Assembly (NCBI GenBank): GCA_030390025.1
Contig: CM059431.1
Span: 154,878,001-154,942,000 of the forward strand
Direction: 5' to 3'
Source of the DNA: Squalus acanthias
Taxonomy: Eukaryota
Length of the DNA: 64,000 nucleotides
The translations under genes and the position numbers were made by a program. Shown piece after piece: positions 27,101 to 64,000 of this stretch (its first letter is position 1; every line of letters starts with the position of its first letter). Below the pieces are notes generated by a model, which saw only the letters and a program-made list of their open reading frames with translations, ran no database searches and was not told where the DNA came from.

Positions 27101-28544
27101 AAGCGAATTACATAAAGTATAAAGGGCCTGAACCCAAGATTAATAGAGCCAGGATTTGAATGTTGTTCATTTACACACAGTTAGACTGTGGAGAACGTAT
27201 CTGCTAATGATCGAAATGGAAGTTAATTCCAAAAACTTAACGTTTCACATCAGAGAGTTCACTGCCCTTCCCTCTAAAATTGAACCAAAATAACTAACAA
27301 CGATCTTTGTCCGTTGCTATCAGTGGCCTTTTGTATTCTGATAATACAGAAGTTTTATGGGCAGCAAAAAACTAATATTGCGGCACTGAACTGAATCCGA
27401 CAGCAGGAGCCGATTTCGCTGTGGGGTCTTCTGAAACCGGGCGCGGGGGGGTGGGGGGGGGCGGGGGAGAGATAAAAATTGCTACCACACAAATAATTAA
27501 AAGATTTGCTTAAGATATCAGTTATTTCCCAGAACAATTTAAATCGAATGAGAATGTGCGTGATTCAGTTTGAGCCCTGTCACAGAGAACAGGGCTGGGA
27601 TAGATCGTACTGATCAGACTGAAGTTCGTGTTTATGACTGTGATGTGTAACTGATCTTTACCCAGGGTGTGCGCATTACCCTGCAGAACTCACAACGCAA
27701 ACATAACCTGACATCATGGAAACAGAATCAGGAGCCGCAGCACAAGTACTCAGAATGCACTCAGCGCAATCAAAGTGCTTTAATGTACCGGAATGTACTC
27801 ATCGCCGTTTATTTGGGTAGTTGTTTAATGTTATTGAAAAGTTATAGTATCAATTATGGATCAGTTAAGAATGCATTATTTTTCAGCAATTCATATACTG
27901 GAAGCAGCGCCATTTAACAGTGTAATACTTCCAAATGTAAACTCACAGACTAAAATGCCACTTTTGGAAATACTATTTAAATATGTTCTCGTTTATGTCA
28001 CCACTCTGAACAATAATATACTGTTCTAGATTTTTAACATGAAAAAGAGCGATTATCCTTTACGGAAATCCAAAGTTTTTACGACTGGAGGCATTAGTTT
28101 GACTCGCATTGACCTCAAGAAGCTTCTAGGTCAATCTGATGCAAATGCAGCATTCTTGTCAATGTGCGTTGCTGTCACCTCTTCTCTGGCATTTAAATCT
28201 TGCACCTGTAAGCATTTCGGGAACAAAGGATTTCAGGTGTCACCCGAACTAAACGTTGGTGAGCAGGTTATTGATGAGTGATAGTTGCTTGATGGCGCTA
28301 TTGATGAATCCACACTTCACTTTGCTGATTATTGAGGGGTGGCTTGTCGGCCGGTAATTGGTTCGACTCAATCTGTCGTAATTTTGTGGATAGGACATAG
28401 CTGAGCCCCCAAAACATCTTTATAAAGTGCAAAAACCATGGTCAACATGTGAGATAAGACAGAGTAAAAACCTAAATGAAGGGACTGACACAAATATAAA
28501 GAAATACGGTAATACACTAAACGGAGAAATAAAGAATTAATTAT

Positions 28545-28970
28545 TGGGATGTGGGCATCGTTGGCAAGGCCGGCATTTATTGCCCATCCCTAGTTGCATT
28601 GAGAATGTGTTGGATAGCGGCCTTCTTGAACCGCTGCAGTCCGTGTTTGATGCAACTGTGTCGCTTGCTAGACCATTTCAGAGGGCGATTAAGAGTCAAC
28701 AACATTGCTACGGGACTGGAGTCACAAAGAGTGCAGACAGGGTAAGTTCGGACGAATTCCTTCCCTGAAGGAAATTAATGAACCAGATGGGTTTTTGCGA
28801 CAATCTAGTATATTCATGGTCAACATTGCTGAGACTCGATTTTTGTTCCAGATATGTTTAATTAAATGCATTTAAATTCCCCAGCTGCCGCAATGGAATT
28901 TTGAACTCGTCATCGGATCATTAGTCCAGGCCTCTGGATTATTGACCAGTAACTTAACCACTATGCTAAC
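28545..28970 (-). mobile_element. SacSINE1-like tRNA-derived Deu-domain SINE
   Basis: Minus strand A-box tagcatagtgg, B-box gagttcaaaattcc; body matches 60520-60690, tail matches 63485-63585. Confidence 0.8.
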
Positions 28971-37599: not shown

Positions 37600-39420
37600 C
37601 GGTTAGCTCTGTTACAGGCTTCGACTATTTGTTGATTAATCCTCTGCCCAACGGTATAGCTACTGTTAGGGAGCCTATACATTATTCCCACCAGTGTTTT
37701 CTGCCCCTTGTTATTTCTTATCTCCACCCATACTGATTCTATTTCCTGATCTTCCGAGCCAAGATCCTTTCTCTCTACTGCCCTTATCTCATCCTTTGTT
37801 ATCAGGTTTACACCCTCCCTTTCCTTTCTCCCTGTTTTTTTTCGAAACATCAAGTAACCGGGAGTAATTAGTACCCAACTCGGACACCATACAACTACGT
37901 CCCTCTAATGGCTATTAGATGAAAGCCATTTATCTGTATTTGTGCAACTAATTATTGTATCTTGTTTCGAATGCTTCGTACATTCAGATAAAGAGCTTTT
38001 AATTTTAACTTTTTACCATTATTCCCTGGTGTCACCGTATTTGCTGATGAACTATTACTGTTAAAATCAGTCTGTGCCTTCGTTTCACACTCTGCTTAAG
38101 TTTACCCAAATCGCTACACTGCTCCATTTTCTAAACTTTGATTTTTAGATTTTAATAATTTCCCTTACCTGACAGCTCTGCCTTTAGGTTTAGTGCCCCA
38201 TCTATAGCCCTAGTTATTCGATTCGCCAGGACACTGATTCCAGCCTGGTTTATGTAAAGCCTGTCCCAACGGAACAGCTCCCGCTTTCCACATTACTGTT
38301 GCCAGTTCCCCATGAATCAATACCGTTTCTCGCACACCAATCTTTGAGCCAGGCATTTAAATCTCTCATCTGCTTGTCCCAATGCCAATTTGCGCGTGGC
38401 TCAGGTAACAATTCGAAGAGTCTTACCTCTGATGTTCTGCATTTTAATTTGGAAACTAGCTCTACAAACTCTCTCAGCAGAACCTCATCCCTAGTTCAAC
38501 ATATGTCATTGGTTCTTACGTGGACACGGCCACTGGATCTTTCTCCTCCCAATGCATTTTTTACTTCAGGCGCGAGGAAATATCATTAACTCAGATAAAC
38601 AGCCTTCGGAAACTCCCGATCGTGGCTGCAGAGAACAGTATATATCCCAGTGACTATACAGTCCCATACCAATACAACATTCCTTTTCACTCTCCCCGCA
38701 CCCTTGAATGGTTTCCTGTACCACGGTGCCGTGGTCAGTTTGCTAATCAAACCTGCAGACTTCGCCCTTATCCGCACAGGCAGCAAGAAACTCGTACGTG
38801 TTGGATAAAGGCAAAGGCCGAGGCTCCTCCAGCAGCGGACCAGGAGACCCCGAACCTGCCTGAGTCGCAGTCACACCCTGCTGTTCCAGAACACTAACCA
38901 GACCTGTAACACTACCTAACCCAATAGATGTGACTGCTTCCTGCATCAGAGTGTCCAGTTAACTCCCCCTCCCTGATGCCCCGCAGTGTCTGCACCTCGC
39001 ACTTAAGCTCAACAAATCTGAGCTGAAGTTCCTCGAAATGCAGACACTTACTGTAGACGTCGTCATTCGGGATTGCAATATTCTCCACAAACTCCCACAT
39101 GCTGCAGTTGCGGCACACCACCTGCACCACATCTATATACATATTTGTTTTCTTTATTGAGTTAAATAAAGTTTATATATTTAATTAACTTAGCTTACAG
39201 TTTAGTTTTTAACTCATTTGTAGATCTGTTTCAATTTATAGGCAGATGAAATTAAATATTTACCTGTAACACAAAGCGCTCCACGTTTTGAAGGAAAAAG
39301 CAACAACTCTATCCCACACTGCGCCGAATTCCCACTCTCTCCAAATTCGCAACTTTAATACTCTGTTTGGAAGCATTCTATGTAAGATCACGCTGTGCAG
39401 ACCACTCTGTGCGTCAACAA
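37600..39420 (-). mobile_element. decayed CR1 5' half (5' UTR, ORF1, APE)
   Basis: ESVWVEIRNNKGQKTLVGIMYR; ORF1 N-terminus CRNCSMWE...KCLHFEELQLR. Confidence 0.8.
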
Positions 39421-39579
39421 ATATGGTTTACTTTTAAACACCTTGGACCCAAAACCAGATTAGAATTGCTATCTCAGCCCCCAGTTCACCCGAATTAGCA
39501 CCTATTCAAGACAAGCACGCACAGCTGCTCATTGACAGTTACCAGAAGTTTAGAAAATATTTCAAGTACTTGAATTTTA

Positions 39580-39900
39580 TTCGTTCTTGGGATGTGGACG
39601 TCACTGCCAAGTCTAGCATTTATTGCTCATCGCTAATTGGCCTTGAGAAGGTAGGAGTGAGCCGCCTTCTTGAACCGCAGCAGTCCGTGTGGTGAAGGTA
39701 CTCCCACAGTGCTGTTAGGTCGGGAGTTCAAGGATTTTGACACAGCGACGATGAAGAAACGGCGAGATATTTCCAAGTTACGATGGTGTGTAACTTGGAG
39801 GGGAACTTGCAGGTGATGGACTTCCCATGCTCCTGCTATCCTTGTCATTCACGGTGGAAGAGATCGCGGCTTTGGGAGGTGCTGCCGAAGAAGCCTCAGC
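39580..39900 (-). mobile_element. 3' end of tRNA/Deu-headed LINE family member
   Basis: Reverse complement resembles 63270-63590. Confidence 0.8.
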
Positions 39901-41179
39901 GAGATATATTCATAGAGTCATAACGGCACAGCAAGAGGCCATTCGGCCCAACGAGTCCGTGACGACTCTCTGCAGAGCAATCGCGTCAGACCCATTCCCC
40001 CGCTCTTTCCCCATAGCCCTGCAAGTTTATTTCCCTCAAGTGCCTATCCAGTCTCCCCTTGAAAACATTGAGTGTCTCCGCTTGCACCACTTCCGTTGGC
40101 AGCGAAATCCAGGTCATCACCACTCACTGCGTAAAAACGATGTTCCTCACATCCTCCTGTATCTCTTGGCCAAAACCTTAAATCTGTTCCCCCCTAGTCC
40201 TTGTACAATCAATTTATGGGAACAGCCTTTCCCCGTCTAGCCTATCTAGACCCATCATAATCGTGTACACCTCTATCAAATCATCCCTCAACCTCCGTTG
40301 CTCTAATGAAAACAAATTCAGCTTCTCCAACCTATCCTTGTAGCTAAGATCCCCCATCCCCGAAACCATTTTGGTAAATCTTCTCTGCACCCTCTCAAGG
40401 ACCTTCACATCCTTCCTAAAGTGTAGTGACGAGAACTGGACGCAATACTCCAGTTGTGGCTTAACCAGCGCTTTAAAAAGGTTCAGCATAACTTCACTAC
40501 TATTTTACTCAATACCTCTACTTATGAAGCCCACTATCGCATATGCTTTGTCAACCACTACCTCAATATGCCTGATACCTTCAGGGACCTATGCACATTA
40601 ACTCCTAGGTCCCTCTCTCCCTGCACATTCTTAAAATCTGCGCCATTAAGTGTATATTGCCTCTCCCTGTTCCTTCTGCCAAAATGCATCACCTCACACT
40701 TCTCTGTATTAAATTCCATCTGCCACTTTTCTGCCAATTCTGCCAGCCTTTCTATTTCCTGTAGCAGTCGATTGATAGCATTATCACTGTTTCCCACATC
40801 CCCAAGTTTGGTTTAATCGGTAAATGTAGAAATTTTACTCAGTATTCCAATATCCAGGTCATTTATATATATCAAAAAAAGCAGTAGCCCCAGCACTGAC
40901 CCTTTGGGAACACCATTATCTTCCATTCTCCAGTCTGACAAACAGTCATTTACCAAAACGCGCTCTTCTGTCTTTAAGTCAATTCATTTTACAAGCTGCA
41001 CTGACCCACCTATTCCATGAGCCTCAATTTTGCTATCCACCCTTCTATGTGATACTTTGTCAAACGCCTTCCGAAAATCCATGCAGACAACATCCATTGC
41101 ATTTCCTTCATCAATCTTCTCTATTACTACATCAAAAAATGCAATTAAGTTTATTCAAACACGATCTGCCTTTTCCAAA

Positions 41180-41318
41180 TACAAAAGCAAAATACTGCGG
41201 ATGCTGGAAATCCGAAATAACAACAGAAAACGCTGGAATAACTCAGCAGGTGAGGCAGCATCCGTGGAGAGAGATAGAGAGTTAACTTTTCAGGTCGCCG
41301 ACCTTTCGTCAGAACTTT
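41180..41318 (-). mobile_element. Penelope 3' remnant with mutated hammerhead, nested in CR1
   Basis: Near copy of 14243-14372; imperfect TSD ttttccaaa / ttttacaaa. Confidence 0.8.
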
Positions 41319-42218
41319 ATTTTACAAACCCTTGTTGACGGTCCTTAATTAGTTTAAACCTCTCCAAATGTCCGTTACTTTTAACGTTGATTATTGTTTC
41401 TAAAACTTTACCCACCACTGAAGTTAAACTGACCGGCCTGCAGTTACTAGCATTGTCCTTTACATTTTCCTGGACAATGGTGTCACATTTGCCACTTTCC
41501 AATCCTCAGGCACCTCCCCCGCATGGAAGAAAGATTGGAAAATTATGGCAAGTCCTTCCCCTATCTCCTCCCCCACATTCCTTAGCAACCTGGGATGCAA
41601 GCCATCTGGACCAGGCGACTTGCCAACTTTAAGCATACCCAGCCATTATAGTAAATCCTGTCTATCAATTTTCACCCCTTCCAATGCTTATACCTTTTCC
41701 ACTTCTACCGATATTTTTACAGCATCCATCTAATTAGTAAACACCGATACAAAGTACTCATTGAGTATTCTAGCCTTGCCCTGCGCCTCTAAGCATATAT
41801 CACCATCTTTGTCTCTAATAGGCCCCACCCCGCCTCTTACTTACCACTTACTGTTTACATGCCGGTAGAAGTGTTTGGGTTTCCTTTTATGTTAATCGCC
41901 ATTCTACTCTCATATTCTCTCTTTGATAATTTTATTTTCATCGTCACATCCCCTCTCAACCTACTGCAGTTGGTCTGGTTCTTCCTTGAAGAATTCATCT
42001 GAAATCCAACATAACCCGCTTTTTTTGTTCCATCATCATCTCTATCTTCCTCGTCATCCAAGGAGCCCTTGCCTGGTTACCCTTACCATTCCCTTGGAAT
42101 GTACCTAGCCTGTACTTGCACTATCACCTTCTTAAAGATCACCCATTGCTCCTTTACAATTTGTCATGTCAGTCTTTGTTTTCATTTTACCCTGGCTAGA
42201 TCCTTTAGCATCTCATTG

Positions 42219-43665
42219 TGTAATGGAATAGTCATCTTTCACATAATACATCATCCTATGAACAGATTTTGAGAATATTAATACATGATGGACTGAGTTA
42301 AAAAGTCTGGAAAGCCTCGGCGACACAGGCTGCAAACACAATACAGGCTTCTGAGATAAGGTGACGTGTTAACAAAAACTGTAAAACATCACAAGGTTTG
42401 AAATGTGAGATGGTTGTAAACACAAAAACAATGCCCCTATTGAAGCAAACCATTGGCGCTTCCAGAAGTTCTAGAGTTTGGGAGAAACACAATGGAATGA
42501 CTCAAGTCAAGAGTTATAAGCTAACCGTCAGGGACACAGAAACTTAGAACATTAAACACCCATATGCCTTCATAAAGTAACAGCTAATAAAACAGGAAAC
42601 ACGATTAAATATACAACCAATTGAGATAGCAAGAAAACAAGTAAACACCCTAAGAGAAGTGATTTCAATTTACAAGTTGTAAAATATACCTTCAGAAGAC
42701 TTTGAAGATATAATATCAATAGATGACACCAAGCAATTACATTGTGTTTGTACTGAGCATGGAAAAACACGGAGTCACGACGTCTGGCTTACAAGCAGTT
42801 AAGTGATATTAAGAATTCAAAAGAACGACTTCCTAAGAATGGCATTAAATAGATAAATCGATAATAACAATTTTATGATAGTTTTGGAACACCGACAGTT
42901 AGAGACAGAATTCTAAAAGTTGGCAGCAGAAATTACAGTAAGAATAGAAAATAATTCAATAGAGTATGACTAGAGATAATTAGTTTACATCAGCAGGAAA
43001 ATTCAAAGAATATACCACGAAAAAAGTGTATAAAAATAAGAGCTTTTCAGATGAAAAGTCAGAAGTCACTGGAAGGGCAAGTGTTTCTCAACTTACCAGG
43101 CACGCTCTGTCATTTTTGAACTCTGAGTCTCGGGTAATCAAGGTATTTGATTTTGGTGGATATTCTTGATTAAGAAATAAATAGAAGTTTGTATATTGTA
43201 ACGAAGTTAAGATTTGAGAATAAGGATCTCTGATAAGAAATGTAAGGTATTTGTATTTTGAATGGTTAAATTTGCGATTGCCACACCAGCTGTTAAATAA
43301 ATGTCGGTTCTTTAATGAATCTATATATTTTTAAAATTGTCTCACTGAGCATTCTGTAACAATCTCGCGAACTGAATTGCTGTACACTCTTCAGAGAGGA
43401 GTTGCAGAATTCTGGGGGGTTGTCCGGACCCTCATAATATCCGGAAGGTTACAGTCTAGTTAAACTTCTTAAAAGTGCTACCCGGAGGACGGTAACATCT
43501 TCAGGCCGTTCCTTTCCTTTAGTGAGAGATAGTCTGAACCTTTAGAGCCAATTAAGAGTCTCTAGGATTCGGCTACCGCTAACGTTAGTTGAAGGTGAAC
43601 GTCTGGGGAATACGCCTGATCTGGGGTAGCATGTAAAGGGCCACGATGCAGTAATTATCCCTTCA
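42219..43665. mobile_element. probable solo LTR (1447 bp)
   Basis: TG...CA termini; 4-bp TSD attg at 42215-42218 and 43666-43669; removing it rejoins the CR1; TATAAAA ~43029, AATAAA ~43176 and ~43296. Confidence 0.75.
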
Positions 43666-44650
43666 ATTGAAGTTAGCCATATTCCAGTTTAGGAGTTCCA
43701 CTCTAGATTGTAATTTGCTAATCTCCATTGCTAATCTAAATCTTATGATACGATGATCACTCGTACCCAAGTGTTCTCCCACAGACACTTGGTCGACCTG
43801 GCCCACCTCATTCCCCAGCACAAGATCCAGCAATACCTGCTGCCTAGTTGGGCCAAGAACATTTTGATCAAGAAAGCTCTCTTGAACACATTTCAGAAAT
43901 TCCTCCCCCTGCATTCCATTTACCCTACCATTATCCCAATCGATATTGATATCACCACTCTTTCGCTCTTGCATATCTCTGCGATTTCCCTGCAGATTTG
44001 CTCCTCTACCTCCCTCTCACTATTTGCAGGCTTATAGAATACGCCCAATAGCGTGATTATCCCCTTTTTGCTCCTCAACTCTAACCAAATGGATTATGAC
44101 CTTGTCCCCTCGAGAACATGCTCCTTTCACAACGCTTCCTTAATCACCACTTCCACCCCACCTCCCTTTTTTCCTTCCCTATCTTTTCTGAACACCTAGT
44201 ACCATTGAATATTAAGTGCCCAGTCCTCACCGTTTTAAAGCAACGTTTCCGTTATTTCCACAACATCATATTGCCACACAGGTAATTGTGCTTGTAGCTC
44301 AGCAACCTTATTCACCACCCTTTGTGCGTTTATGTACATTCATCCTAAACACATTTTTGAATTTTTCGTAATCTTTCTTAGTCTGCTCCTAACTAATATG
44401 TTACTACTAACGCCTCTGGTACTATCTTTAGTACTATCCAACACACTCACTCTTTTATGCACCCTATTCCACTTTCTACTACTATATGCTGCTGCAGAAT
44501 GCCCCAGCCAAGTTAGTTTAATCCCTCCCCAACAGCACTAGCAAACCTCCCCGTGAGAATATTGATCCGGCTCTGTTGAAGTATAACCAGTCCGGCTATT
44601 ACAGGTACCACCTTCCCCAGAAATGGTCCCAATGCCTCAGGAATCTAAAG

Positions 44651-45085: not shown

Positions 45086-46587
45086 TAAAGCCCTCCCTCC
45101 TGCACCATCTCTCCAGCCACGCGTTCATCTGTTCTTTCCTCCTTTTCCTGTACTCACTAGCACATGGCACCGGGAGTAATCCGGAGATTACTAGCTTTGA
45201 GGTCCTGCTTTTTAATCTCTCTCCTAGCTCCCTAAACTCTGCCTGCATGACCTCATCCCTCTTTCTGCAAATGTCGTTGGTACCGATATGGACAACGACC
45301 TTTGGCTGTTCACCCTCCCCCCATAGATTGTCCTGCAGCCGGTCAGTGACATCCTTGACTCTGGCACCAGGGAGGCAAAATACCATCCTGGCGTCACGTC
45401 TATGGAGAAATGCCACACTGTTCCCCTAACTATCGAAACCCCTACCACTATTTCTCTTCCGGTATTTTTCCTACCACCGTGACTCTGAGCCACCCGTGGT
45501 GCCGCGGACTTGACACTGACTGCACTCCCCAGAGGAACTATCGCTGTCACCACTACTCAGAAATTAATACTGGTTTTAGAGTGCGATGAACTCTGGGGTC
45601 GCATGCACTACCTGCCTGGTCCTCCTCTTCTGTCTGGCGATCACCCATTCCCTCTCGTCCTGCATATTCTTAAGCTGCGGGGTGACCACCTCCGGAAACG
45701 TGCTATCCACGTAACTCTCAACCTTGCGGATGCACTGCAGTGATTCCAGCAGCCAATCAATCTCCGAAACACGGCGCTCGTGTTGCTGTTGCTGTTGACT
45801 CATCCCGCACATGTGATCTATCATGCTAAGCGAAGTGTCCAGGACTTCCCAGATGGCACAGGATGCGGAATCCACTGGACTGAGCTGCCCTTCCCTGCCT
45901 CAATTTAACAGATGAATAACTAACCCAGCAGAAATAAATTTAAATGTTAACAAAAAAAAATCCCCAGCTACTCACCAATCAGCACTTTCCCTTAACTTAA
46001 TATACTATTAACGAACTTAGCATAAATAAACTTAAAAACTTTAAAAAAATGCATTCACCAGTGAATCAACAATCAGCTCCTTCCGTGTATTAATTTCCAG
46101 CTGCCACTTGTCTGCCCGTTCTGCTACCCTTTCTATGTCCTGTTGCAGTCGAATGGTATCATCGTCACTGTATGCCACACCCCCACGTTTGGTGTAATAG
46201 CCACATTTAGAAATCCAACTTTTGAGGAACTCAACATATGTTAACCAAATTTTCCATAAGGGAAGGCGGTAAGCTGCAATTGTCTCTTAAAGAAGCATGT
46301 CAAATGCTCAGCACTCTCCCTGAAGTGTTAAAGGAATTATCCAGGCAACAAAGAAAACCTGTCATTTAGCATTATACAATTTTAGACCAAATACATTTAT
46401 GTTAATACAAAAATAGTATCTGCTATGCAAGTGTAAAACTGTTCAAATATCAATAATACAACCTGTATACAAGTTGCCAGATTCTGTGCTCAGCTGATCA
46501 TAAAAACTTGTTTTTTTAGTCCAATAAGTAATTATGATCACAACAGAGAGGAAAATGAAGGATATGTACAAGACACTCATTGCGAAT

Positions 46588-49500
46588 TAAATCTGCCGTC
46601 CTTACCTGGTCTGGCCTATATGTGACTTCAGACCCAATGTGATTGATTCCTAGCTGCCCTTTCCAATGGCCTAGCAAGCCATGCAGTTGCAAACAACCGC
46701 GACGGTACACAATATACTGAATAAACGTGGACGGACCACCGCCACCGACCTCGGCACCGACTACGGTCGCGACAACGGCACACCCAGTCCAGTGGACCCG
46801 GCAAAGTCCTCCTCACCAACTTCTAGGGACTTGTGCCAAAATTGGGAGAGATGTCCCACAGACTATTCAAGAAAGAGCCTGACATAGTCATACTCACATA
46901 ATTATTCCTTTAAGCCAATGTCCCAAACTCCTCCATCACCATCCCTGGGAATGTCCTGTCCCATCGGCAGGACAGTCCCACCAGGGGTGGCGGCACAGTG
47001 ATATACAGTCCGGAAGGTGTGGCTCTGGTTGTTTTCAACATTTACTCCAGACTCCATGTAGTTTCATGGCTTCAGGTCAAGCATGGGCAAGGACACCTCC
47101 TGCTGATTACAACCTACCGCCCTCCCCCAGCCGATGAACCAGTACTTCTTCATGTTGAACACCACTTGGAAGAAGTAATGAGGGTAGCAAAGGCACAGAA
47201 TGTCCTTTGGGTGGGGGACTTCAATGTCCATCACAAAGAGAGGCTCGGTAGCGCCACTACTGACCGAGCTTGTCCGAGACCTGGAGGACGGAGCAACCAG
47301 TCTGGGCCTAAGACAGATATTGAGAGAACCAACACGAGGGAAAAACCTTCTTGACCTCGTCCTCACCAATCTACCTGTCGCAGATGCATCTGTCCATGAC
47401 AGCATTGTTAGCAGTGACCACCGCACAATCATTTTGGATACGAAGTCCCGTTTTCACGCTGAAGGTACCCTCCATCGTGTTCTGTGTCACTACCACCGTG
47501 CTAAATGGGATAGATTCGGAACAGATCTAGCAGCTCCAAACTGGTCATCCATGAGGCGCTGCGAGCCATCAGCAGCAGCACAATTGTATTCCACCACAAT
47601 CTGTAACCTCATGGCCCGGCATATCCCTTCCTCTAACATTACCATCAAGCCAGGGGACGAACACTGTTTCAGTAAGGAGTGTAGAAGTGCATGCCAGGAG
47701 CAGCACCAGACGTACCTAAAAATGAGGTGCCAAATGTGGGGAAGCTGCAGCACAGGAATACATGCATGTGAAAAAGGGGAAGCAGCATGCTATAGACAGG
47801 ACTGAGCGATCCCAAAATCAACGGATCAGATCACACCTCTGCAGTCCTCTTACATCCAATCGTGAATGGTGGTGGACCATTAAACAACTACTGGGAGGCG
47901 GAGGCTCCATGAATATCCCCATCCTCAATGATGGTTGTGCCCAGCACGTGAGTACAAAAGACAAGGCTGAAGCGTTTCGAACCATCATCAGCCAGAAGTG
48001 CCGAGTGTATGATTCATATCGGCCTACTCCTGATGTCCCCGCCATCACAAGCCATTTTTCAGCCAATTCGATTCACTTCACGTGATATCAAGAAATGGTT
48101 TAGCGCACTGGATACAACACAAGCTATGGGCCCCGACAACATCCCGGCTATCGTGCTGAAGACTTGTGCTTCAGGACCAGCCTTGCCTCTAGCCAAGCTA
48201 TTCCAGTACAGCTACAACACTGGCATCTATCCGACAACGTGGAAAACCGCCCAATTACCGCCCCATCAATCTACTCTCAATCATCGACAAAATGATGTTA
48301 GGTGTAATTAACAGTGCTATCAAGCGGCACTTACTCACCAATAAACTGTTCAATGATGCCCAGTTTCTGTTACGCAAAGACCACTCAGCTCCCGATCTCA
48401 TTACAGCCTAGGTCCCACCATGGACAAAGGGGCAGAATTCAAGCGGTGAGGTGAGAGTGTCTGCCCTTGACATCAAGGCAGTAATTGGCCGGGTGTGGCA
48501 TCAAGGAGCCCTAGTAAAACAGAAGTCAAAGGAAATCGAGGGGAAAACTCTCCACTGGCTGGAATCATACCTAGCACAAAGAAAGGTGGGTATGGTGGTT
48601 GAAGGTCAATCACCGCAGCCCCAGGACATCGCAGCAGGAGTTCCTCAGGTTAGTGTCCTAGGCCCAATCATCTTCAGCTGCTTCATCAATGATCTTCTCA
48701 CCAACATAACGTCAGAAATGGGGATGTTCGCTGATGACTGCAAAGGGTTTAGCACCATTCAGAACTCCTCGGATAAAGAAGCAGTCCATGCCCGCATGCA
48801 ACAAGACCTGGACGACGTTCAGGTTTGGGCTGATAAGTGGCAGATAACATTCACGCCGCACAAGTGCCAGGCAAATGAACATCACCAACAAACGAAATTC
48901 TAACCACCTCCGCTTTTTTCAAGGCTGGGAACTGAACATCCAGGGGTATTCAACATTCAGAAAGGATAGAATAAAAGGAAAAGGGGTGGGGTAGCATTGC
49001 TGGTTAAAGAGGAGATTAATGCAATAGCTAGGAAGGACATCAGCTTGGAGGATGTGGAATCAATATGGGTTCAGCTGCAGAACACCAAAGGGCAGAAAAC
49101 GTTAGTGGGAGTTGTGTACAGACCTGCAAACAGCAGTAGTGAGGTGGGGGAGGGTATGAAACAGGAAATCAGAGGTGCGTGCAAAAAAGGCACGGCAGTT
49201 ATCATGGGTGACTTTAATATGCATATAGATTGGGCTACTCAAACTGGAAGCAATACAGTGGAGGAGGATTTCCTGGAGTGTTTAAGGGATGGTTTCCTAA
49301 ACCAATATGTTGAGGAACCAACTCGAGGGGAGGCCATCCTGGACTGGGTGTTGTGTAATGAGGAAGGACTAATCAGCAATCTTGTGGTACAAGGCCCCCT
49401 GGGGAAGAGTGACCATAGTATGGTGGAGTTCTCCATTAGGATGGAGAAGGAAACAGTTAAGTCAGAGACCATGGTCCAGAACTTAAATAAGGCAAACTTT

Positions 49501-52245
49501 GAGGGTATGAGGCGTGAATTGGCGAGGTTAAATTGGCAAGCGATATTTAAGGGGCTATCAGTGGAAGGGCAATGTCAGACATTTAGAGATCGCATGGATG
49601 AACTACAACAATTGTACATCCCGGTCTGGCATAAAAATAAAAAAGGGAAGGTGGCTCAACCATGGCTAACAAGGGAAATCAGCGATAGTATTAAAACCAA
49701 GGAAGTTGCATACAAATTGGCCAGAAGTAGCAGCAAGCCCGGGGACAGGGAGAACTTCAAAACTCAGCAGAGGAGGACGATGGGTTTGATTAGGCAGGGA
49801 AAATAAAATATGAAAGGAAGCTTGCAGAGAACATTAAAATGGAATGCAAAAGCTTCTATAAATATGTAAAAAGAAAGAGGTTAGTAAAAACAAACGTAGG
49901 TCCCCTGCAGTCGGAAACAGGGGAAGTCGTAATGGGGAACAAGGAAATGGCTGATCAATTGAACAAGTACTTTGGTTCGGTGTTTACTGTGGAGGACACA
50001 CACAACCTGCCGGAAATAAAAGGGGTCAGAGGATCTGGTAAGAGGGAGGAGCTGAGGGAAATCCTTATTACTCGGGAAAAGGTATTGGGGAAATTGATGG
50101 GACTGAAGGCTGAAAAATCCCCGGAGCCTGATGGTCTGCATCCCAGAGTACTTAAGGAGGTGGCCTTGGAAATAGTGGATGCATTGACGATCATTTTCCA
50201 ACAATCATTAGACTCTGGATCAGTTCCGATGGAGTGGAGGGTGGCCAATGTAACCCCTCTTTTTAAAAAAGGAGGGAGGGAGAAACCAGGGAATTATAGA
50301 CCGGTCAGCCTGACATCGGTCGTGGGTAAAGTGATGGAAGCAATTATTAAAGATGTCATAACAGACCATTTGGAAAGTGGCGACATGATAGGTCCAAGTC
50401 AGCATGGATATGTGAAAGAGAAATCATGCTTGACAAATCTTTTGGAATTTTTTGAGGATGTTTCCAATAGGGTGGACAGGGGGGAACCAGTAGATGTGGT
50501 GTATTTGGACTTTCAGAAGGCCTTCGACAAGGTCCCACACAAGAGATTGGTGAGCAAAGTTAAAGCACATGGGATTGGGGGTAATGTGTTGACGTGGATT
50601 GAGAACTGGTTGGCACACAGGAAACAAAGCGTAGGAGTAAATGGGTACTTTTCAGAATGGCAGGCAGTGACCAGCGGGGTACCGCAGGGTTCGGTGCTGG
50701 AACCCCAGCTGTTTACATTATATATTAATGATTTGGACGAAGAGATGAAATGTAATATCTCCAAATTTGCTGATGACACTAAATTGGGAGGCAGTGTGAA
50801 TAATGAGGAGGATGCTAGGAGGCTACAGAGTGACTTGGACAGGTTGGGTGAATGGGCAAATGTATTGCAGATGAATTACAATGTGGATAAATGTGAGGTT
50901 ATCCACTTTGGTGGTAAAAATAGAGAGGCGGACTATTACCTGAATGGTGGCAGATTAGGGAAAGGGGAGGTGCAACGAGACCTGGTCTCCTAACTTAAGG
51001 AAGGACATTCTTGCTATTGGGGGAGCGCAGCGAAGGTTCACTAGATTGATTCCAGGGATGGCCGGTCTGACATATCAAGAAAGGTTGGGTCAACTGAACT
51101 TGTATCCACTGGAGTTCAGAAGAATGAGGGGGGATCTTATAGAGACATTTAAAATCCTGACTAGTTTAGACAAATTAGATGCGGGCAGAATGTTCCCAAT
51201 GTTAGGGAAAACTAGAACCAGGGGTCACAGTCTAAGGATTAAGGGGAAGCCATTTAAGACTGAGCTGAGAAGGAACTTCTTCACCCAGAGAGTGGTGAAT
51301 CTATGGAATTCTCTACCACAGAAGGTTGTTGAGGCCAGTTCGCTAAATATATTCAAAAGGGAGTTAGATATAACACTCACAACTAGGGGGATCAAGGTGT
51401 ATGGCGAGAAAGCAGGAATGGGGTACTAAGGTAGCATGTCCAGCCATGAACGCATTGATTGGCGGTGCAGGCTCGAAGGACCGAATGGTCTACTCCTGTA
51501 CCTATTTTCTATGTTTCTATGTTTCTATGTAATTCAACGGCATTACAATCGCCGAATCCCACAACATCAGCATCCTGGGGGTCACCATTGACCAGAAATT
51601 TAAGTGGATCAGTCAAAAAAATATTGAGGCAACAAGAGCAGTTTAGAACCTAGATATTCTGCGGCGAGTGTCCCACCGCGTGACTCCAGAAATCCTTTCC
51701 TCCATCTCCAAGGGACAAGTAAGGAGTGTGAAGGAATACTCTCCACTTGACTGGATGTGTGCAGCTCCAGCAACACTCAAGAAGCTCGACACCATCCAGG
51801 ACTTAGCAGGCCGCTTGATTGGCATCCTTTCGACCACCTTAAACATTCACTCCTTCCATCAGCGGAGTACCGTGGCTCCACTGTGTACGATCTACAAGAT
51901 GCATTGCAGAAACTCGCCAAGGCTTATTCGACAGCACCTCCCAAACCCGCAAAGTCTTCCACGTAGAAGGACAAGGGCAGCAGACGCATGGGAACACCAC
52001 CACCTCCAAATTCCCCTCCAAATCACACACCATCCTGACTTGGAAGTATATCGCCGATCCTTCAATGTTGCTGATTCAAAATCCTGGAAATCCCTCTCTA
52101 ACAGCACTGTGGGCGTACCTTCACCACCAGGACTGCAGCCGGTCAGGAAGGCGGCTCACCACCACATTCGTAAGGGCAATTAGGGATGGGCAATAAATGC
52201 TGGCCTTGCCAGCGATGCTCACATCCCATAAACGAATAAATACAA
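46588..52245 (+). mobile_element. tRNA/Deu-headed LINE copy (head truncated), split by a nested CR1
   Basis: Deu end 46588-46690, APE (TTYRPP, VGDFN, SDH), RT (MFADD) to 48915, resumes 51533-52245; collinear with 60585-63606. Confidence 0.88.
48923..51532 (+). mobile_element. 5'-truncated CR1 LINE nested in Deu-LINE
   Basis: ORFs 48997-49806, 49839-50993, 51046-51429; internal deletion near 50985; (TTTCTATG)n tail; possible TSD ttcaa. Confidence 0.92.
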
Positions 52246-52249
52246 AAAA

Positions 52250-57457: not shown

Positions 57458-60352
57458 TGCGAGAAGCATCAGGAACAAGGTAGATGAATTAGCTGTGGAA
57501 ATAGAGGATAATAATTATGATCTAATTGGGATTACGGAAACATGGTTGCAGGGTGAGCAGGGCTGGGAGCTTAACATACAGGGGTATTCAGTATTTAGGA
57601 AGGATCGACAAAAAAGAAAGGGAGGAGGGGTAGCATTGCTGGTAAAAGAAGGGATAAATGCAATTGAAAGGAAGGATATTAACTCAGTTAATACAGAATC
57701 TATATGGGTGGAGCTAAGAAATAGCGAGGGGCGAAAAACATTAATAGGAGTGGTATATAGGCCTCCAAATAGTAAAATAGAGGTTGGGGAGGGCATCACG
57801 AGGGAAATTAGAGAAGCGTGCAATAAGAGCACAGCTGTCATCATAGGTGACTTTAACTTACATATAGATTGGAATAGCCTAATCAGTAAAAATAATGATG
57901 AGGAGGAATTCCTTGAGTGTTTAAGGGATGGTTATCTGGATCAATATATCGAGGAACCAACTCGGGAACAGGCTATATTGGACTGGGTACTGTGCAATGA
58001 GAAGGGACTAATTAGTAATCTTGTTGTACGGGGACCCTTGGGTCAGAGCGATCATAACATGATCGATTTCTCACTCGAAATGGAGAGCGAAGAAATTGAC
58101 TCAGATACTAAGGTCCTGAATTTAAACAAGGGGAATTATGATGCCATTAGACGGGAACTGAGTAGGTCTGATTGGACAACGTTCCTGGGAGGACTGGAGG
58201 TAGATAAACAATGGCAAGCATTTAAAGATAGAATGACAAAATTGCAAAAATTGTTTATACCAATCTGGCATAAAAGGAAATCTAAAAAGGTGACCCAACC
58301 GTGGATAACAGGGGAAATTAGAGACAGCATAAAATCCAAAGATAGGGCGTATAAAATAGCCAAAAAAAGCGCCAGAGCGGAAGATTGGGAACAGTTTAAG
58401 ATAGAGCAAAGGAGGACAAAGGGCTTAATCAAGAGGGGCAAAATAGCTTACGAAAGCAAGCTGGCGGAAAATTTAAAAACTAACTACAAAAGCTTTTATA
58501 AGTATATCAAGAGGAAAAGACTGGTGAAAACCAAAGTTGGCCCATTGCAGTCAGATACGGGGGAATATATAACGGGAAATAAGGAAATGGCAGACCAACT
58601 AAATGCATACTTTGGGTCAGTCTTTACGAAGGAAGACACAAAAAACCTCCCTGGGATATCGGGAAAAATAGGGACATTTGCAAAGGAGGAACTGACGCAA
58701 ATCAATATCTCTAAGGATATGGTGTTAAGGAAGCTAAAGGGATTGAAGGCGGACAAATCCCCAGGGCCTGATAACATGCATCCTAGGGTGCTGAAGGAGG
58801 TGGCCCTAGAGATAGCGGATGCACTAAGTATGATTTTTCAGAATTCATTAGACTCGGGAACAGTGCCCATGGATTGGAGGGTAGCTAACGTTACCCCACT
58901 ATTCAAAAAGGGGGGTAGGGAAAAAGCAGGTAATTACAGACCTGTAAGCCTTACATCAGTTGTGGGCAAAATGCTGGAGTCCATCATTAAGGATGAAATA
59001 GCGGAGCACTTAGCAAATGGGGACAGGATAGGACAGAGTCAACATGGATTTACAAAGGGTAAATCGTGCTTGACTAATCTATTGGAATTTTTTGAGGGAG
59101 TAACTGGTAAAATAGATGGGGGAGAGCCAGTAGATGTGGTGTACCTGGACTTCCAAAAGGCCTTCGAAAAGGTCCCACATAAAAGATTAGCAGGGAAAAT
59201 TGAAGCTCATGGGATAAAGGGGAAAGTATTGACGTGGATAGAGAACTGGCTGTCAGATAGAAAACAGAGAGTTGGAATAAACGGCTCATTTTCTGAATGG
59301 CAGGCAGTAACAAGTGGGGTACCACAGGGATCTGTCCTGGGTCCCCAGCTGTTCACAATTTACATTAATGACCTGGATCAGGGAGTCGGATGCAGCATTT
59401 CCAAATTTGCAGACGACACTAAACTAGGAGGGGGGGGGGGGGGTGGGCTCAGAGGAGGAGACCAGGAAGCTCCAGAGCGATTTGGACAGACTGGGTGATT
59501 GGGCGGATAAATGGCAGATGCACTATAATGTGGACAAGTGCGAAGTTATCCACCTTGGGTGCAGGAACGGGAGGGCAAATTATTATTTAAATGGCAATAA
59601 ATTGGGAGAGGGGGAAGTACAGAGAGACCTGGGTGTTCTTGTACACCAGTCACTGAAGGCGAGCATGCAGGTGCAACAGGCAGTCAAGAAGGCAAACGGT
59701 ATGCTGGCCTTCATAGCAAAAGGGTTGGAATACAGGAACAGGGATACCTTGCTGCAGCTGTACAGGGCACTGGTGAGACCACACCTCGAGTACTGTGTAC
59801 AGTTTTGGTCGCCTCATCTGAGGAAAGATGTTCTTGCCATGGAGGGGGTGCAGCGGCGATTCACCAGGCTGATACCAGGAATGGCGGGATTAACCTATGA
59901 GCAGAGACTATGTAGTTTAGGGATGTACACACTGGAGTTTAGAAGATTGAGAGGGGACCTCATGGAAGTATATAAAATTCTGACAGGTCTAGACAGGCTA
60001 GATGCAGAAGGAATGTTTCCCTTGGCGGGTGAGAACAGAACTAGAGGACATAATTTAAGGATAAGGGCTAAACCATTTAGGACAGAAATGAGGGGGAATT
60101 TCTTCACTCAGAGGGTGGTGAACCTGTGGAACTCATTGCCACAGAGGGCAGTGTACGCCAGCTCATTAAATATATTTAAGAGGGAATTAGATATATTTCT
60201 ACAGGCAAAAGGGGTTAAGGGTTACGGAGAGAAGGCGGGGACGGGATACTGAATTGGAGGATCAGCCATGATCTCATTAAATGGCGGAGCAGGCTCGAAG
60301 GGCCGGATGGCCTACTCCTGCTCCTATCTTCTATGTATCTATGTATCTATGT
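57458..60352 (+). mobile_element. young 5'-truncated CR1 LINE with nearly intact ORF2
   Basis: ORFs 57441-59498 and 59443-60252; single frameshift in the G14 run at 59430-59443; (TCTATGTA)n tail. Confidence 0.95.
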
Positions 60353-60363
60353 TCCATTAGAAC

Positions 60364-63300
60364 GGTAGCATAGTGGTAATGTCACTGGTACCAGTAATCC
60401 AGCAGGACTGAGCTAATGATCCGGTAAACGTGGGTTCAAATTCCACCACGGAAGCAGGGGAATTTAAATTCAGTGTTAATTAAATAAATCTGTAATAAAA
60501 AGTTAGCATAAGTTAATGGTAACCATGAAACTATCAGATTGTCGTAAAAACCCATCTCCTTCAATAATGTCCTTTCGGGAAGGAAATCTGCCGTCCTTAC
60601 CTGGTCTGATCTATATATGTCTCCAGACCCACATAACTGTGGTTGTTTCTTAACTACGCTCTGAAATGGTCTATCAAGCCACTCAGTTGTAAAAAAACCC
60701 GCTACGAAACACAATAATAAGAATTAAACCGGACGGAACACACGGCATCGAACTCGGCACTGGCTTGGACACGGCAACGGCACACCAGGCGACCCTGCAA
60801 AGTCTTCCTCACCATCATCTGGGGCTTGTGCCAAAATTGGGAGAGTTGTGCCACAGACTAGGCAAGCAACAGCCTGACATAGTATTACTCACAGAATTAT
60901 AAATTTCAGCCAATGTCCCAAACTCTTCCATCACAATCCTAAGATATGCCCTGCCCCAGCGGCAGGACAAACCCACCAGGGGTGGTGGCACAGTGGTATA
61001 CAATCGGGAAGGAGTGGCCCTGGGAGTCCTCGACATTCACTCTGGACCCCATGAAGACTCATGGCTTCAGGTCAAGCACGGGCAAGGAAACCTCCTGCTG
61101 CTTACCACCTACCGCCCTTCCTCAGCTGTTGAATAAGTACTCCTCCACGTTGAGCACCACTTGGAAGAAGCAATGAGAGAAGCAAGGGCACAGAATGTAT
61201 TAACGTCCATCACCAAGAGTGGCTCGGCAGCACCAATGCTGGCCGAGTCCTGAAGTGCTCAGCTGCCAGTCTGGGCCAGCGACAGGTGGTGAGCGAACCA
61301 ACACGATGGAAAAACCTACTTGACCTCGGCCTCACCTATCGACCTGTCAGAGATGCATCTATCCATGACAGCATTGGTAGCAGTGACCGCCGCACAATCA
61401 TTCTGGAGACGAAGTCCCGTCTTCACACTGAGGACACACTCCATCGTGTTGTGTGGCACTACCACCGTGCTAAATGGGATAGCTACAGATCTAGCAGCTC
61501 AAACTTGGGCATCCATGAGGCGCTGTGGGCCATCAGCAGCAGCAGAATTGTATTCCACCACAATCTGTAACCTCATGGCCAGGCATATCCCTCACTCTAC
61601 CATTACCAATAAGCCAGGGGACCAACACTGTTTCAATAAGTAGTGTAGAAGAGAATGCCAAGAGCAGCAACAGGCGTACCTAAAAATGAGGTGCAAACGT
61701 GGGGAAGCTGCAACACAGGACTACATGCCTGTGAAAAAGGTGAAGAAGCATGCTTTAGACAAACGTAAGCGATCCCACAATCAACGGATCAGATCAAAGC
61801 TCTGCAGTCCAACCATATCCGGTCGTGGACCACGAAGTAACTATCGGGTGGAGGAGGCTCCATGAATATCCCCATCCTCAATGACGGTGGAGCCCAGCAC
61901 GTGACTGTACAAGATAAGGCTGAAGCGTTCGCAATCATCTTCAGCCAGAAGTGCCGAGTGGGTGATCCATATCGGCCTACTCCTGAGGTCCCTACCATCA
62001 CAGAAGCCAGTTTCCAGCCAATTCGATTCAGTCCACATGATATCAAAAAAAGGCTTAGCGCACTGGATACAACAAAGACTATGGGCCCCGAAAACAGCCC
62101 GGCTATCGTGCTGCAGAATTGGCCGCAACTCTAGTCAAGCTGTTCCAATGCAGCTACAACACTGGCATCTATCCGACAATTTGGAAAACTATCCAGGAAT
62201 GTCCTGTCCGCAAAAAGCAGGACAAATCCATACCGGCCAATTGACGCCCCATCGGTCTACTGTCAATCATCAGCAAAGTGATGGAAGGTTTCATCGACAG
62301 TGCTATCAAGCGGCACTTACTCACCAATAACCTGCTCACTGATGCCCAGTGTGGGTTCCAACAAGATCACTCGGATCCCGACCTCATTACAGCCTTGTTC
62401 CAAACATGGACAAACGAGCTGAATTCCAGAGGTGAAGTGAGAGTAACTGCCCTTGACATCAAGGCTGCATTTGACTGGATGTGGCATCAAGGTCCCCTAG
62501 TAAAATTTCAGTCAATGGGAATCGGAGGGAAAACTCTCCACTGGCTGGAGTCATACCTAGCACAAAGGCAGATGGTTGTGGTGCTTGAAGTTCAATCATC
62601 ACAAGCCCCAGGACATCGCTGCAGGTGTTCCTCAGGGAAGGTCCGAGGCACAACCATCTTCAGCTGCTTCATCAATGACATTTGCTCCAACCTAAGAGCA
62701 GAAATGGGGCTGTTAGCTGATGTCTGCACAGTGTACAGCGCCATTCACAACTCCTCTGATAAGGCAGCAGTTCATGCCCGCATGCAACATGACTTGGACG
62801 ACGTTCAGGTTTGGGCTGATCAGTGGCAGGTAACATTCGCGCCATAGAAGTGCCAGGCAATGACTATCTCCAAATTGCGAGAGTGTAACCACCAACCCTT
62901 GACTTTCAACGGCATTACCATCGCTGAATCCCCAATCATCACCATTGACCAGAAACTTAACTGGACTAGCCACATGAATACTTTACCAACAAGCGCAGGT
63001 CAGAGGCTAGGTATTCTGCGGCGAATTTCTCACCTCCTGATTAACCAAAGCCTTTCCAACATCTACAATGCGCAAGTAGAGGAGTGTGATGTAATACTCT
63101 CCTCTTCCTTGGGTGAGTGCAGCTCCAACAACACTCAAGAAGCTCGACACCATCCAGGACAAAGCAGCCCGTTTGATTGGCACCCCATCCAGCATCTTAA
63201 ACAATCACTCCCTCCACCACCGGCGTACCGTGGCTGCAATGTGTATCATCTATGAGATGCACAGCAACAGCTCGCCAAGGCTTCTTTGGCATCACCTCCC

Positions 63301-63606
63301 AAACCCGCGACCTCTTCCAAGTAGAAGGACAAGGGCAGCAGGCGCATGGGAACACCACCACCTCCAAGTTCCCCTCCAAGTCACACATCATCCAAACTTA
63401 GAAGTATATCGCCGATCCCTCATCGTCGCTGGGACAAAATCCTGGAACTCCCTACCTAACAGCAGTGTGGGAGTACTTTCACCACACAGAGTGCAGCGGT
63501 TCAAGAAGGCGGCTCACCTCCACCTTCTCAAGGGCAATTATAGATGGGCAATAAATGCTGGCCTTGCCAGCGACGCCCACATCGCATAATCGAATATAAA
63601 AAAAAA
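60364..63606 (+). mobile_element. full-length decayed tRNA/Deu-headed LINE lacking ORF1 (APE + RT, CR1-group)
   Basis: A-box 60366-60376, B-box 60433-60444, Deu-like body 60520-60690, APE from ~60800 (QQPDIVLLTE), RT 62278-62847, A-rich end. Confidence 0.88.
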
Positions 63607-64000
63607 GTGTTTACATTTTCCTACGTTTAACGTTCCCTATATTTGTTGTTTCCTCTGTTTATTTTCCCGATATTTAAAGTTACTGCTTTTACTGTTTCTT
63701 CTGTTTCTCCTTACCTATGCTTCGTGTTTCTTTTGTTTCCTCTTTCCTATGTTTATTGTTTCCTTTGTTTACTATTTCTTATGTTTCGTGTTACCTAAGT
63801 TTTCTGCATCTGATATTTGGAGTTTGTTATGCTTCCTATTTCCCAGGTTTACTTTTTCCAATCTTTTATATTCCCTATGGTTAGGTCTCACTTGTTTACT
63901 GTTTCCTCTGTTTCCCGCTCCCTCTGTTTACTGTTTCCTATGATTAGTTTTTCTTATATTTACTGTTTCTTATATTTGCTGTTTCTTATGTTTACTGATT
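63607..64000 (+). repeat. degenerate T-rich array, continuation
   Basis: Same motifs as 52250-57457. Confidence 0.8.

What the first reader, a model, noticed from the sequence alone, without database searches (positions are those of the whole stretch)
60364..63606. No TTTT Pol III terminator in 3.2 kb of the sense strand
Seen: reading 60364-63606 by eye I found no run of four T, but more than ten AAAA runs. The adjacent ordinary CR1 (57458-60352) has several TTTT runs. TTTT runs in the 46.6-kb sibling (~47032, 47432, 47451, 48055) fall where this copy has other bases, so they look like post-insertion mutations. Established: T4 or longer terminates vertebrate Pol III. Inference: selection for Pol III read-through of an entire coding sequence, implying cap-independent translation, possibly via the Deu domain (speculative).
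Basis: partly seen in the sequence, partly recalled or inferred. Interest (0 to 1): 0.85.

Follow-up and report, generated by a model that had tools for sequence, protein, structure and literature searches.

The report
LINE carrying a SINE promoter head
This is an old copy of a 3.3-kb jumping gene whose front end is the RNA-polymerase-III promoter head of a SINE and whose whole length lacks that polymerase's stop signal, although its own codon usage nearly explains that lack.

Summary
Observation confirmed. Window 60364-63606 has 0 T4 runs and 15 A4 runs. It lies in the longest T4-free stretch of the window, 3,809 nt against a mean spacing of 160 nt.

It is a decayed full-length copy of a ~3.28-kb single-ORF LINE family (endonuclease + reverse transcriptase). 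Its first ~335 nt are a tRNA-derived A/B-box head plus a Deu-like body, shared with a local SINE.

In 54 copies (135 kb) there are 32 T4 runs against 182 expected from base composition. No internal site is shared by more than 5 of 46 copies, so the master had none. Nine ordinary CR1 pieces in the same window carry 3.9 per kb. However, synonymous-codon shuffles expect only ~1.9 per ORF, with P(0) 0.07-0.20. That is suggestive, not proof of selection.

The ORF evolved under purifying selection and has no in-frame ATG.

Best reading (~45%): a LINE transcribed from its SINE-type Pol III promoter. Main rival: a Pol II LINE with a captured SINE leader. I found no head-bearing LINE in the papers searched.

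The parts
60358..63606 (+). Whole element: decayed full-length copy of the ~3.28-kb head-bearing LINE family
   Evidence: aligns end to end with L010, L011, L012, L014, L018, L019 and L028; 5' terminus GGGAAC|GGTAGC... in most full-length copies (here TAGAAC at 60358-60363). Upstream flanks are unrelated between copies.
60365..60447 (+). tRNA-derived head
   Evidence: Rfam tRNA model RF00005, 22.2 bits (gathering 29), E 0.23. D arm and T arm are matched, with a 31-nt insert in the anticodon region. ARAGORN finds no tRNA.
60366..60376 (+). A-box-like motif TAGCATAGTGG
   Evidence: Read. Kept in 16 of 16 aligned 5' ends, apart from single private changes. The box consensus is recalled, not taken from a tool.
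60433..60444 (+). B-box-like motif GGTTCAAATTCC
   Evidence: Read; it aligns to the T loop of the tRNA model. The main lineage has GAGTTCAAATCC.
60448..60689 (+). Body shared with the SINE (Deu-like domain)
Evidence: the short SINE copy 28649-28968(-) matches positions 3-326 of the element.
60690..60692 (+). TAA that opens the long reading frame
   Evidence: GTTGTAA precedes the frame in 7 of 8 younger full-length copies and in nearly all older ones. No in-frame ATG follows before the endonuclease domain.
60693..63541 (+). Remains of the single ORF (~948 codons in the family), broken here into several frames
   Evidence: The family stop TAG corresponds to 63539-63541.
60815..61415 (+). Apurinic-type endonuclease region (approximate, projected from L040)
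   Evidence: Exo_endo_phos E 4e-9 and Exo_endo_phos_2 E 1.1e-14 on the L040 piece, residues 43-246.
62212..62956 (+). Reverse transcriptase region (approximate, projected from L050)
   Evidence: RVT_1 E 4.1e-40 on the L050 piece, residues 370-618. One search gives the tblastn placement.
63484..63606 (+). 3' tail shared with the SINE (last ~57 nt of the ORF plus the 3' UTR)
   Evidence: SINE copy 28540-28646(-) matches element 3121-3227. One search shows the sequence.
63550..63571 (+). AATAAA followed by a possible hairpin GCTGGC-CTT-GCCAGC
   Evidence: Read. The hairpin is inferred; no covariation was seen.
63594..63606 (+). 3' end ...GAATATAAAAAAAAA: the T/A homopolymer end
   Evidence: in other copies this is GAAT(T)nA(5-9). 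It is the only recurrent T4 site, in 8 of 35 aligned copies plus L039.
63616..63619 (+). First T4 downstream of the element, 10 nt past the A run
   Evidence: The flank is T-rich, so this is expected by chance.
46582..48908 (+). 5'-truncated sibling (starts inside the Deu-like body). It continues at 51533-52248 after a nested CR1.
28540..28968 (-). Short SINE form: head + Deu-like body + tail, without the ORF

Best explanation
SHOWN. The stretch is an old, decayed, full-length copy of a ~3.28-kb LINE family with one ORF (endonuclease + reverse transcriptase, no ORF1). The first ~335 nt are not an ordinary LINE leader. They are a tRNA-derived head with A- and B-box motifs, followed by the Deu-like body of the local SINE. 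The last ~120 nt are the SINE's tail. The short SINE therefore looks like this element without its ORF. The family master had no internal T4; the T4 runs seen in copies arose after insertion.

INFERRED (about 45%). The element is transcribed from its own SINE-type internal Pol III promoter, starting at nucleotide 1 of the head. It can only yield a full-length template because no T4 terminator lies between the head and the 3' end. The T-poor, C-ending codon usage gives, or helps to keep, that state. The RNA would be uncapped, so the ATG-less ORF would need unconventional initiation. That last step is speculative.
For: 1. The family is real and LINE-like.
- 19 copies, counting the window's, reach element position 6 or lower. 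Most begin GGGAAC|GGTAGC with unrelated upstream DNA.
- With L010 as query, 9 of 40 scored rows start at nt 1-7; the others are 5'-truncated and run to the 3' end.
- Pfam finds EN and RT.

2. The head belongs to the LINE lineage.
- The window copy and L002 share head variants and an in-frame 6-nt ORF deletion.
- 5'-truncated copies break inside the Deu-like body.
- No cluster of alternative 5' ends with another leader was found.

3. The head is tRNA-like, with D- and T-loop (A/B box) matches.

4. T4 counts.
- 32 runs in 135,036 nt of 54 copies, against 182 expected by base composition. A4 runs are 634 against 653 expected.
- There are 17 sites. Each internal site occurs in at most 5 of 46 copies.
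- Nine canonical-CR1 pieces in the same window have 54 T4 runs in 13,782 nt of sense strand, with TT/expected of 0.91-1.18 (seven of the nine at 1.11-1.18). The family has 0.70-0.90 in its full-length copies.

5. The ORF was under purifying selection in the master lineages. Among shared non-CpG variants, 44 are synonymous, 52 nonsynonymous and 0 stop. Among singletons the counts are 459, 1261 and 75 (Fisher p 4e-5; one search agrees). The head-bearing element therefore coded for a working protein.

6. The only recurrent T4 sits at the extreme 3' end, just before the terminal A run.

7. Inference: an inherited 5' end identical to the start of a Pol III head needs a promoter that starts there. 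The A/B boxes are the only known candidate.
Against: 1. Given the family's own protein sequence and codon usage, only about 1.9 T4 runs are expected in the ORF. P(0) is 0.07-0.20 in 12 younger copies and 0.07-0.66 per piece in older ones. Dinucleotide shuffles of the less decayed copies give P about 0.2.

2. T avoidance is general, not sharp at four. TT and TTT are also low, and C is preferred to T at third positions everywhere (TTC 116 to TTT 38, TAC 89 to TAT 37, CAC 188 to CAT 73).

3. All copies share one ancestry, so this is effectively one observation.

4. No natural Pol III transcript of 3.3 kb that encodes a protein is known to me (recalled).

5. An AATAAA lies 45 nt before the A run, which would also suit Pol II polyadenylation.

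6. T4-T6 directly before the A run in about a quarter of copies would stop Pol III before the A run, if that run is templated.

7. I obtained no evidence at the RNA level.
Confidence: 0.45

Rival explanations
1. An ordinary Pol II-transcribed LINE whose leader was captured from a SINE, for example by template switching. The head is a passenger or serves Pol II. The lack of T4 is a by-product of a T-poor, C-rich coding strand.
For: - Codon-aware and dinucleotide-aware shuffles leave only a weak excess depletion.
- C-ending codons are preferred throughout.
- AATAAA lies upstream of an A-run end.
- LINEs are known to swap 5' leaders, and SINE sequences can act on Pol II (both recalled).
Against: - Every full-length copy starts at the first nucleotide of the tRNA-like head, through old and young subfamilies. 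Pol II would have to start exactly where Pol III would.
- Co-resident Pol II-type CR1s have 3.9 T4 per kb.
- The ORF lacks an ATG.
Confidence: 0.35
2. A non-autonomous 'long SINE': a one-off SINE-LINE chimera, copied in trans by a headless autonomous relative through the shared 3' tail. Its ORF is a passenger that need not be translated.
For: - No in-frame ATG.
- No fully open ORF among the full-length copies I examined (longest pieces 815 and 766 aa, both in 5'-truncated copies).
- Tail-recognising LINEs mobilise SINEs in trans (PMC5499810, passages).
Against: - Shared variants are enriched for synonymous changes and include no stops.
- Stops and frameshifts are private to single copies.
- No headless full-length relative turned up among the rows scored. 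Only 40 of 25,000-44,000 candidates were scored in each search.
Confidence: 0.12
3. A chance feature of this one decayed copy.
Against: The same holds in 54 copies. No internal T4 site is shared by more than 5 of 46.
Confidence: 0.02

Closest known systems
tRNA-headed Deu-SINEs of sharks and coelacanth (SacSINE1, LmeSINE1; PMC5499810 passages, PMC3747384 table)
   Same: tRNA-derived head with A/B boxes, a central conserved body, and a 3' tail shared with an L2/CR1-type LINE. A short copy of this build lies at 28540-28968(-).
   Different: Here a ~2.85-kb endonuclease/reverse-transcriptase ORF sits between body and tail. Those papers describe the LINE partner only by tail homology and mention no head on it.
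ORF1-less CR1-group LINEs with an A-rich end in elasmobranchs ('Zenon'; PMC13343379 passages)
   Same: Single ORF with APE and RT, no ORF1, A-run end. They are reported in elasmobranchs, coelacanth and hagfish, the taxa that also hold tRNA-headed Deu-SINEs.
   Different: That paper contains no occurrence of 'tRNA' and describes no SINE-type head. I did not test RT phylogeny. The A run here is short (5-9).
Kojima's model that SINE bodies derive from LINE 5' UTRs through internally deleted LINEs (PMC5786205 passages)
   Same: SINE = 5' part + 3' part of a LINE, with the ORF removed.
   Different: In that model the tRNA head is added to the deleted LINE, and the text notes that Pol II signals may conflict with Pol III. 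Here the coding LINE itself bears the head.
R2 elements (PMC3414825 abstract; the rest recalled)
   Same: Works alike if the Pol III reading is right. It is a LINE made by a polymerase other than Pol II (a Pol I co-transcript cut by a ribozyme), so its RNA is uncapped and its ORF lacks a conventional start.
   Different: R2 is site-specific, has a different endonuclease, and has no promoter of its own.
T+ SINEs such as B2, with AATAAA, a Pol III terminator and an A tail at the 3' end (PMC12101331 abstract)
   Same: The order AATAAA ... T run ... A run at the 3' end of many copies.
   Different: The T run here varies from 1 to about 10 between copies, without clustering on the tree. Its function is untested.

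Membership tests
LINE (non-LTR retrotransposon, CR1 group) | Encodes an apurinic-type endonuclease and a reverse transcriptase | tested here: met
   RVT_1 E 4.1e-40; Exo_endo_phos_2 E 1.1e-14; Exo_endo_phos E 4e-9.
LINE (non-LTR retrotransposon, CR1 group) | Copies share the 3' end and are variably 5'-truncated | tested here: met
   most copies run to element nt 3238-3243 and start anywhere from nt 1 to about 1300.
LINE (non-LTR retrotransposon, CR1 group) | ORF kept by selection (autonomous lineage) | tested here: met
   synonymous share 0.46 among shared variants against 0.26 among singletons, p 4e-5; 0 shared stops.
Zenon-type CR1-group LINE | No ORF1 | tested here: met
   Only ~335 nt precede the ORF, and they are the SINE head and body.
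Zenon-type CR1-group LINE | Poly-A tail | tested here: inconclusive
   The element ends in an A run of only 5-9, preceded by a variable T run.
Zenon-type CR1-group LINE | RT groups with Zenon in a tree | not tested
   No reference LINE sequences were at hand. RT is only 25-32% identical to the canonical CR1 next door.
tRNA-derived SINE, Deu superfamily | tRNA-derived head with A and B boxes | tested here: met
   a tRNA model hit below threshold (22.2 bits), with D and T arms aligned. Motifs read.
tRNA-derived SINE, Deu superfamily | Central Deu domain | not testable with these tools
   No SINE or repeat library was available. The supplement of PMC5499810 could not be read. The identity rests on recall.
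tRNA-derived SINE, Deu superfamily | Short and non-coding | tested here: not met
   3.28 kb, with a ~948-codon ORF.
Pol III type-2 transcription unit | Internal A and B boxes near the start | tested here: met
   A box at +9 of the element, B box about 50 nt further on.
Pol III type-2 transcription unit | No T4 between start and end | tested here: met
   No internal T4 in the master. The excess over codon expectation is not significant.
Pol III type-2 transcription unit | Actually transcribed by Pol III | not testable with these tools
   No RNA run on record. The contigs I laid gave no start or strand.

The most novel reading that the evidence does not exclude
A vertebrate LINE that is itself a Pol III gene. 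Its 3.3-kb template and message is started by a tRNA-type head and kept free of T4. Its ATG-less endonuclease/RT ORF is read from uncapped RNA with help from the conserved Deu body. The ancient Deu-SINEs would then be its ORF-deleted offspring, which would explain why the Deu domain is so conserved.
Probability: 0.25. Interest if true: 0.9.

Novelty: new variant of a known kind. Interest (0 to 1): 0.68.

Why it matters
SINEs are defined as Pol III-driven parasites of Pol II-driven LINEs. A coding LINE that carries the SINE's own head and body at its exact 5' end blurs that line.

It gives a concrete parent for an old SINE superfamily. The SINE would simply be the LINE minus its ORF.

It also makes testable an idea that was raised and dropped for L1: that a LINE can be made by Pol III. 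If that is right, it would be a natural case of a long protein-coding Pol III transcript.

Even if Pol II makes the RNA, the element shows a LINE lineage living for a long time with a SINE as its leader and without a start codon.

Tried and rejected
- RNA evidence. The look-up of sequencing runs listed no RNA holder: 17 runs are only guessed to be RNA. I laid contigs of X1, X3, X9 and X10 on L041.
- Orientation slip. I first read the depth as falling 5' to 3'. I then found that the element lies on the minus strand of L041. The depth in fact rises towards the element's 3' end, as copy number alone predicts, and says nothing about transcription (note).
- Probe searches gave 576, 4,108 and 4,154 first-look candidates. 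These are not a copy-number measure, because the tool skips very common words.
- One search scanned the wrong end of the element; one search replaced it.
- ARAGORN found no tRNA. Rfam at gathering score found nothing.
- A ~460-nt sequence abutting the LINE at position ~352-356 in L015 and L035 looked like an alternative leader. It is an independent dispersed repeat, and the L035 junction was spread by segmental duplication.
- A codon-position test of shared variants alone was weak, so I replaced it with the synonymous/nonsynonymous test.
- Counting T4-creating changes among shared substitutions has no power (about 0.5 expected).
- The protein atlas gave only generic RT clusters.
- Earlier scan notes held nothing on this element.
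- Literature searches and passages read mention no LINE with a tRNA or SINE head. Repbase and Dfam could not be consulted.
Full report
**1. The observation**

Window 60364-63606 (3,243 nt, T 21.2%) has no run of four or more T and 15 runs of four or more A. The neighbouring CR1 (57458-60352) has five T4 runs.

On the + strand of the whole window there are 399 T4 runs, one per 160 nt. The longest T4-free stretch is 59807-63615 (3,809 nt) and the next is 1,872 nt. The third, 25688-27328, is another copy of the same family.

At those alignment positions most copies have other bases.

**2. What the stretch is**

BLAST inside the window and against the window's own 3.7-Gb genome shows a repeat family.
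- *Ends.* Counting the window's copy, 19 copies reach element position 6 or lower. Most begin GGGAAC|GGTAGCATAGTGG, and their upstream DNA is unrelated, so the true 5' end here is near 60358. Nearly all copies run to the same 3' end...CCCATAAACGAAT(T)nA(5-9). Many are 5'-truncated.
- *Age.* With the younger copy L010 as query, 9 of 40 scored rows start at nt 1-7, and identities are 93-96%. A short probe finds copies up to 99% alike.
- *Coding part.* Natural open pieces of up to 815 aa carry Exo_endo_phos and RVT_1. The RT is only 25-32% identical to the canonical CR1 next door.

**3. The 5' end**

Window 60365-60447 matches Rfam's tRNA model below threshold (22.2 bits against 29; E 0.23). The D and T arms, which are the A- and B-box regions, are aligned, and there is a 31-nt insert. 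ARAGORN calls no tRNA.

The next ~240 nt are shared with a short SINE copy at 28540-28968(-). That copy matches element 3-326 and then 3121-3227 directly. The SINE therefore has the build of this element minus positions ~330-3120.

Siblings at 46582 and 31803 are truncated inside this body. The window copy and L002 share head variants together with an in-frame 6-nt ORF deletion. The head therefore evolves with the LINE and is not added anew at each insertion.

**4. The ORF**

The long frame opens after a TAA (GTTGTAA; window 60690-60692) and ends at a TAG about 66 nt before the 3' end.
- In the 16 aligned older 5' ends and in 8 of 8 younger full-length copies there is no in-frame ATG before the endonuclease domain. 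The exceptions are private changes, an ACG-to-ATG change in three older copies and in L045, and another change in L042.
- An ATG in the same frame lies 8 codons upstream of the TAA. Its third codon is TAG in older copies and CAG or GAG in 5 of 8 younger ones. A second ATG, 14 codons downstream of that TAA, opens a 48-codon ORF in another frame.
- No copy I looked at has the whole ORF open.
- Variants shared by four or more copies (non-CpG) are 44 synonymous, 52 nonsynonymous and 0 stop. Singletons are 459, 1261 and 75 (Fisher p 4e-5). The result holds at thresholds of 3 and 6 copies and in the first set of 42 sequences. The ORF was therefore under purifying selection while the head-bearing family diversified.

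**5. T4 in the family**
- In 54 sequences (135,036 nt) there are 32 T4 runs against 182 expected from base composition. A4 runs are 634 against 653.
- The 32 runs fall at 17 sites. Sixteen are internal, each in 1-5 of 28-47 covering copies. The seventeenth is the extreme 3' end, in 8 of 35.
- Nine canonical-CR1 pieces in the same window have 54 T4 runs in 13,782 nt of sense strand (3.9 per kb; observed/expected 1.5; TT/expected 0.91-1.18, seven of the nine at 1.11-1.18; C 13-16%). The family has C 27-28%, T 20-21% and TT/expected 0.70-0.90 in its full-length copies.

**6. Is it more than composition?** This is the weak point.
- Dinucleotide shuffles expect 3.4 runs in the window copy (P 0.02) but only 1.5-2.6 in less decayed copies (P 0.08-0.35).
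- Synonymous-codon shuffles of natural in-frame pieces expect 1.4-2.2 per younger copy, or 1.9 per 2.85-kb ORF. Observed are 2 private runs in 32,424 nt, and P(0) is 0.07-0.20. Older pieces give P 0.07-0.66.
- C-ending codons beat T-ending ones in all two-fold families, so TTT is not singled out.
- All copies descend from one lineage, so this is close to a single observation.

The depletion goes in the predicted direction, by roughly a factor of 5-10 in likelihood, but it is not significant on its own.

**7. How it most likely works**

A family that keeps the first nucleotide of a tRNA-type head through old and young subfamilies needs a promoter that starts there and is carried inside the element. 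The A and B boxes are the only known candidate. A box at +9 is how tRNA-derived SINEs are built (recalled).

Pol III would then have to pass 3.3 kb, and the T4-free master allows that. The terminal AATAAA...T run...A run recalls T+ SINEs (PMC12101331, abstract). An ATG-less ORF would suit an uncapped RNA, as in R2 (recalled; PMC3414825, abstract). I put this reading at about 45%.

Against it:
- the weak statistics above;
- no known natural precedent for a 3.3-kb coding Pol III transcript (recalled);
- the AATAAA could serve Pol II;
- T4-T6 just before the A run in about a quarter of copies would stop Pol III before a templated A run.

The T-run length does not cluster on the tree. T plus A length is roughly constant, which may point to slippage or to the target site rather than to a terminator.

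**8. Rivals**
- A Pol II LINE with a captured SINE leader (35%).
- A trans-mobilised chimera with a passenger ORF (12%). The selection signal argues against it.
- Chance in one copy (2%). This is refuted by the family data.

**9. What is known**

Papers on shark and coelacanth Deu-SINEs name an L2/CR1-type partner by tail homology only (PMC5499810 and PMC3747384, passages).

A 2026 survey describes ORF1-less, A-tailed 'Zenon' LINEs in elasmobranchs, coelacanth and hagfish. These are the taxa that also hold tRNA-headed Deu-SINEs. The survey never mentions tRNA (PMC13343379, passages).

Kojima's model derives SINE bodies from LINE 5' UTRs but puts the head on the deleted derivative (PMC5786205, passages).

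In seven searches I found no report of a coding LINE with a SINE head. Repbase and Dfam could not be checked, and the supplement of PMC5499810 was not readable.

**10. RNA**

No run is on record as RNA. The contigs I laid give no start, strand or level. My first reading of their depth was an orientation error, which I corrected.

**Verdict**

The more solid and more interesting result is the head-bearing, ATG-less, selected LINE itself.

Noticed in passing
window 60650-60760; L039-L046 5' regions: The ~948-codon ORF has no in-frame ATG. An in-frame ATG GCC (TAG in older copies, CAG or GAG in 5 of 8 younger ones) lies 8 codons before the TAA that opens the frame. Another ATG, 14 codons downstream of that TAA, opens a 48-codon ORF in a different frame. 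How translation starts is unexplained.
   Followed up: partly
window 63594-63606; 3' ends of L010-L050: The 3' end is GAAT(T)nA(m), with n from 1 to about 10 and n+m roughly constant at 10-11. The T-run length does not follow the tree. This may be slippage, a target-site effect or a terminator remnant.
   Followed up: partly
L035:40-506; L015 upstream region; G000 C7 36.94-37.21 Mb: A ~460-nt dispersed repeat containing GCGCATGCGC abuts the LINE at element position ~352-356 in two copies. The L035 junction recurs at least 17 times in clusters on C7, C214 and C24, which indicates segmental duplication.
   Followed up: partly
(L015, L016, L035 and three rows): Six copies start at element position 348-356, the boundary between the SINE-like leader and the ORF. 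This may be a hot spot for truncation or template switching.
   Followed up: no
window 63688-63997: A T-rich tandem array of 16-nt period (19 copies, 64% matches) lies directly downstream of the element.
   Followed up: no
window 48909-51532: A canonical CR1 ending in a (TTCTATGT)n-type microsatellite is nested in the sibling copy, splitting it into 46582-48908 and 51533-52248.
   Followed up: partly
window 60730-60790; alignment: The ~60 nt after the leader are very CpG-rich (about ten CpGs), and most copies still keep them.
   Followed up: no
Runs labelled as eight coded organisms (A-H) hold 21-78% of the sampled 31-letter words of a young copy. Near-identical copies therefore occur under several species labels.
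   Followed up: no
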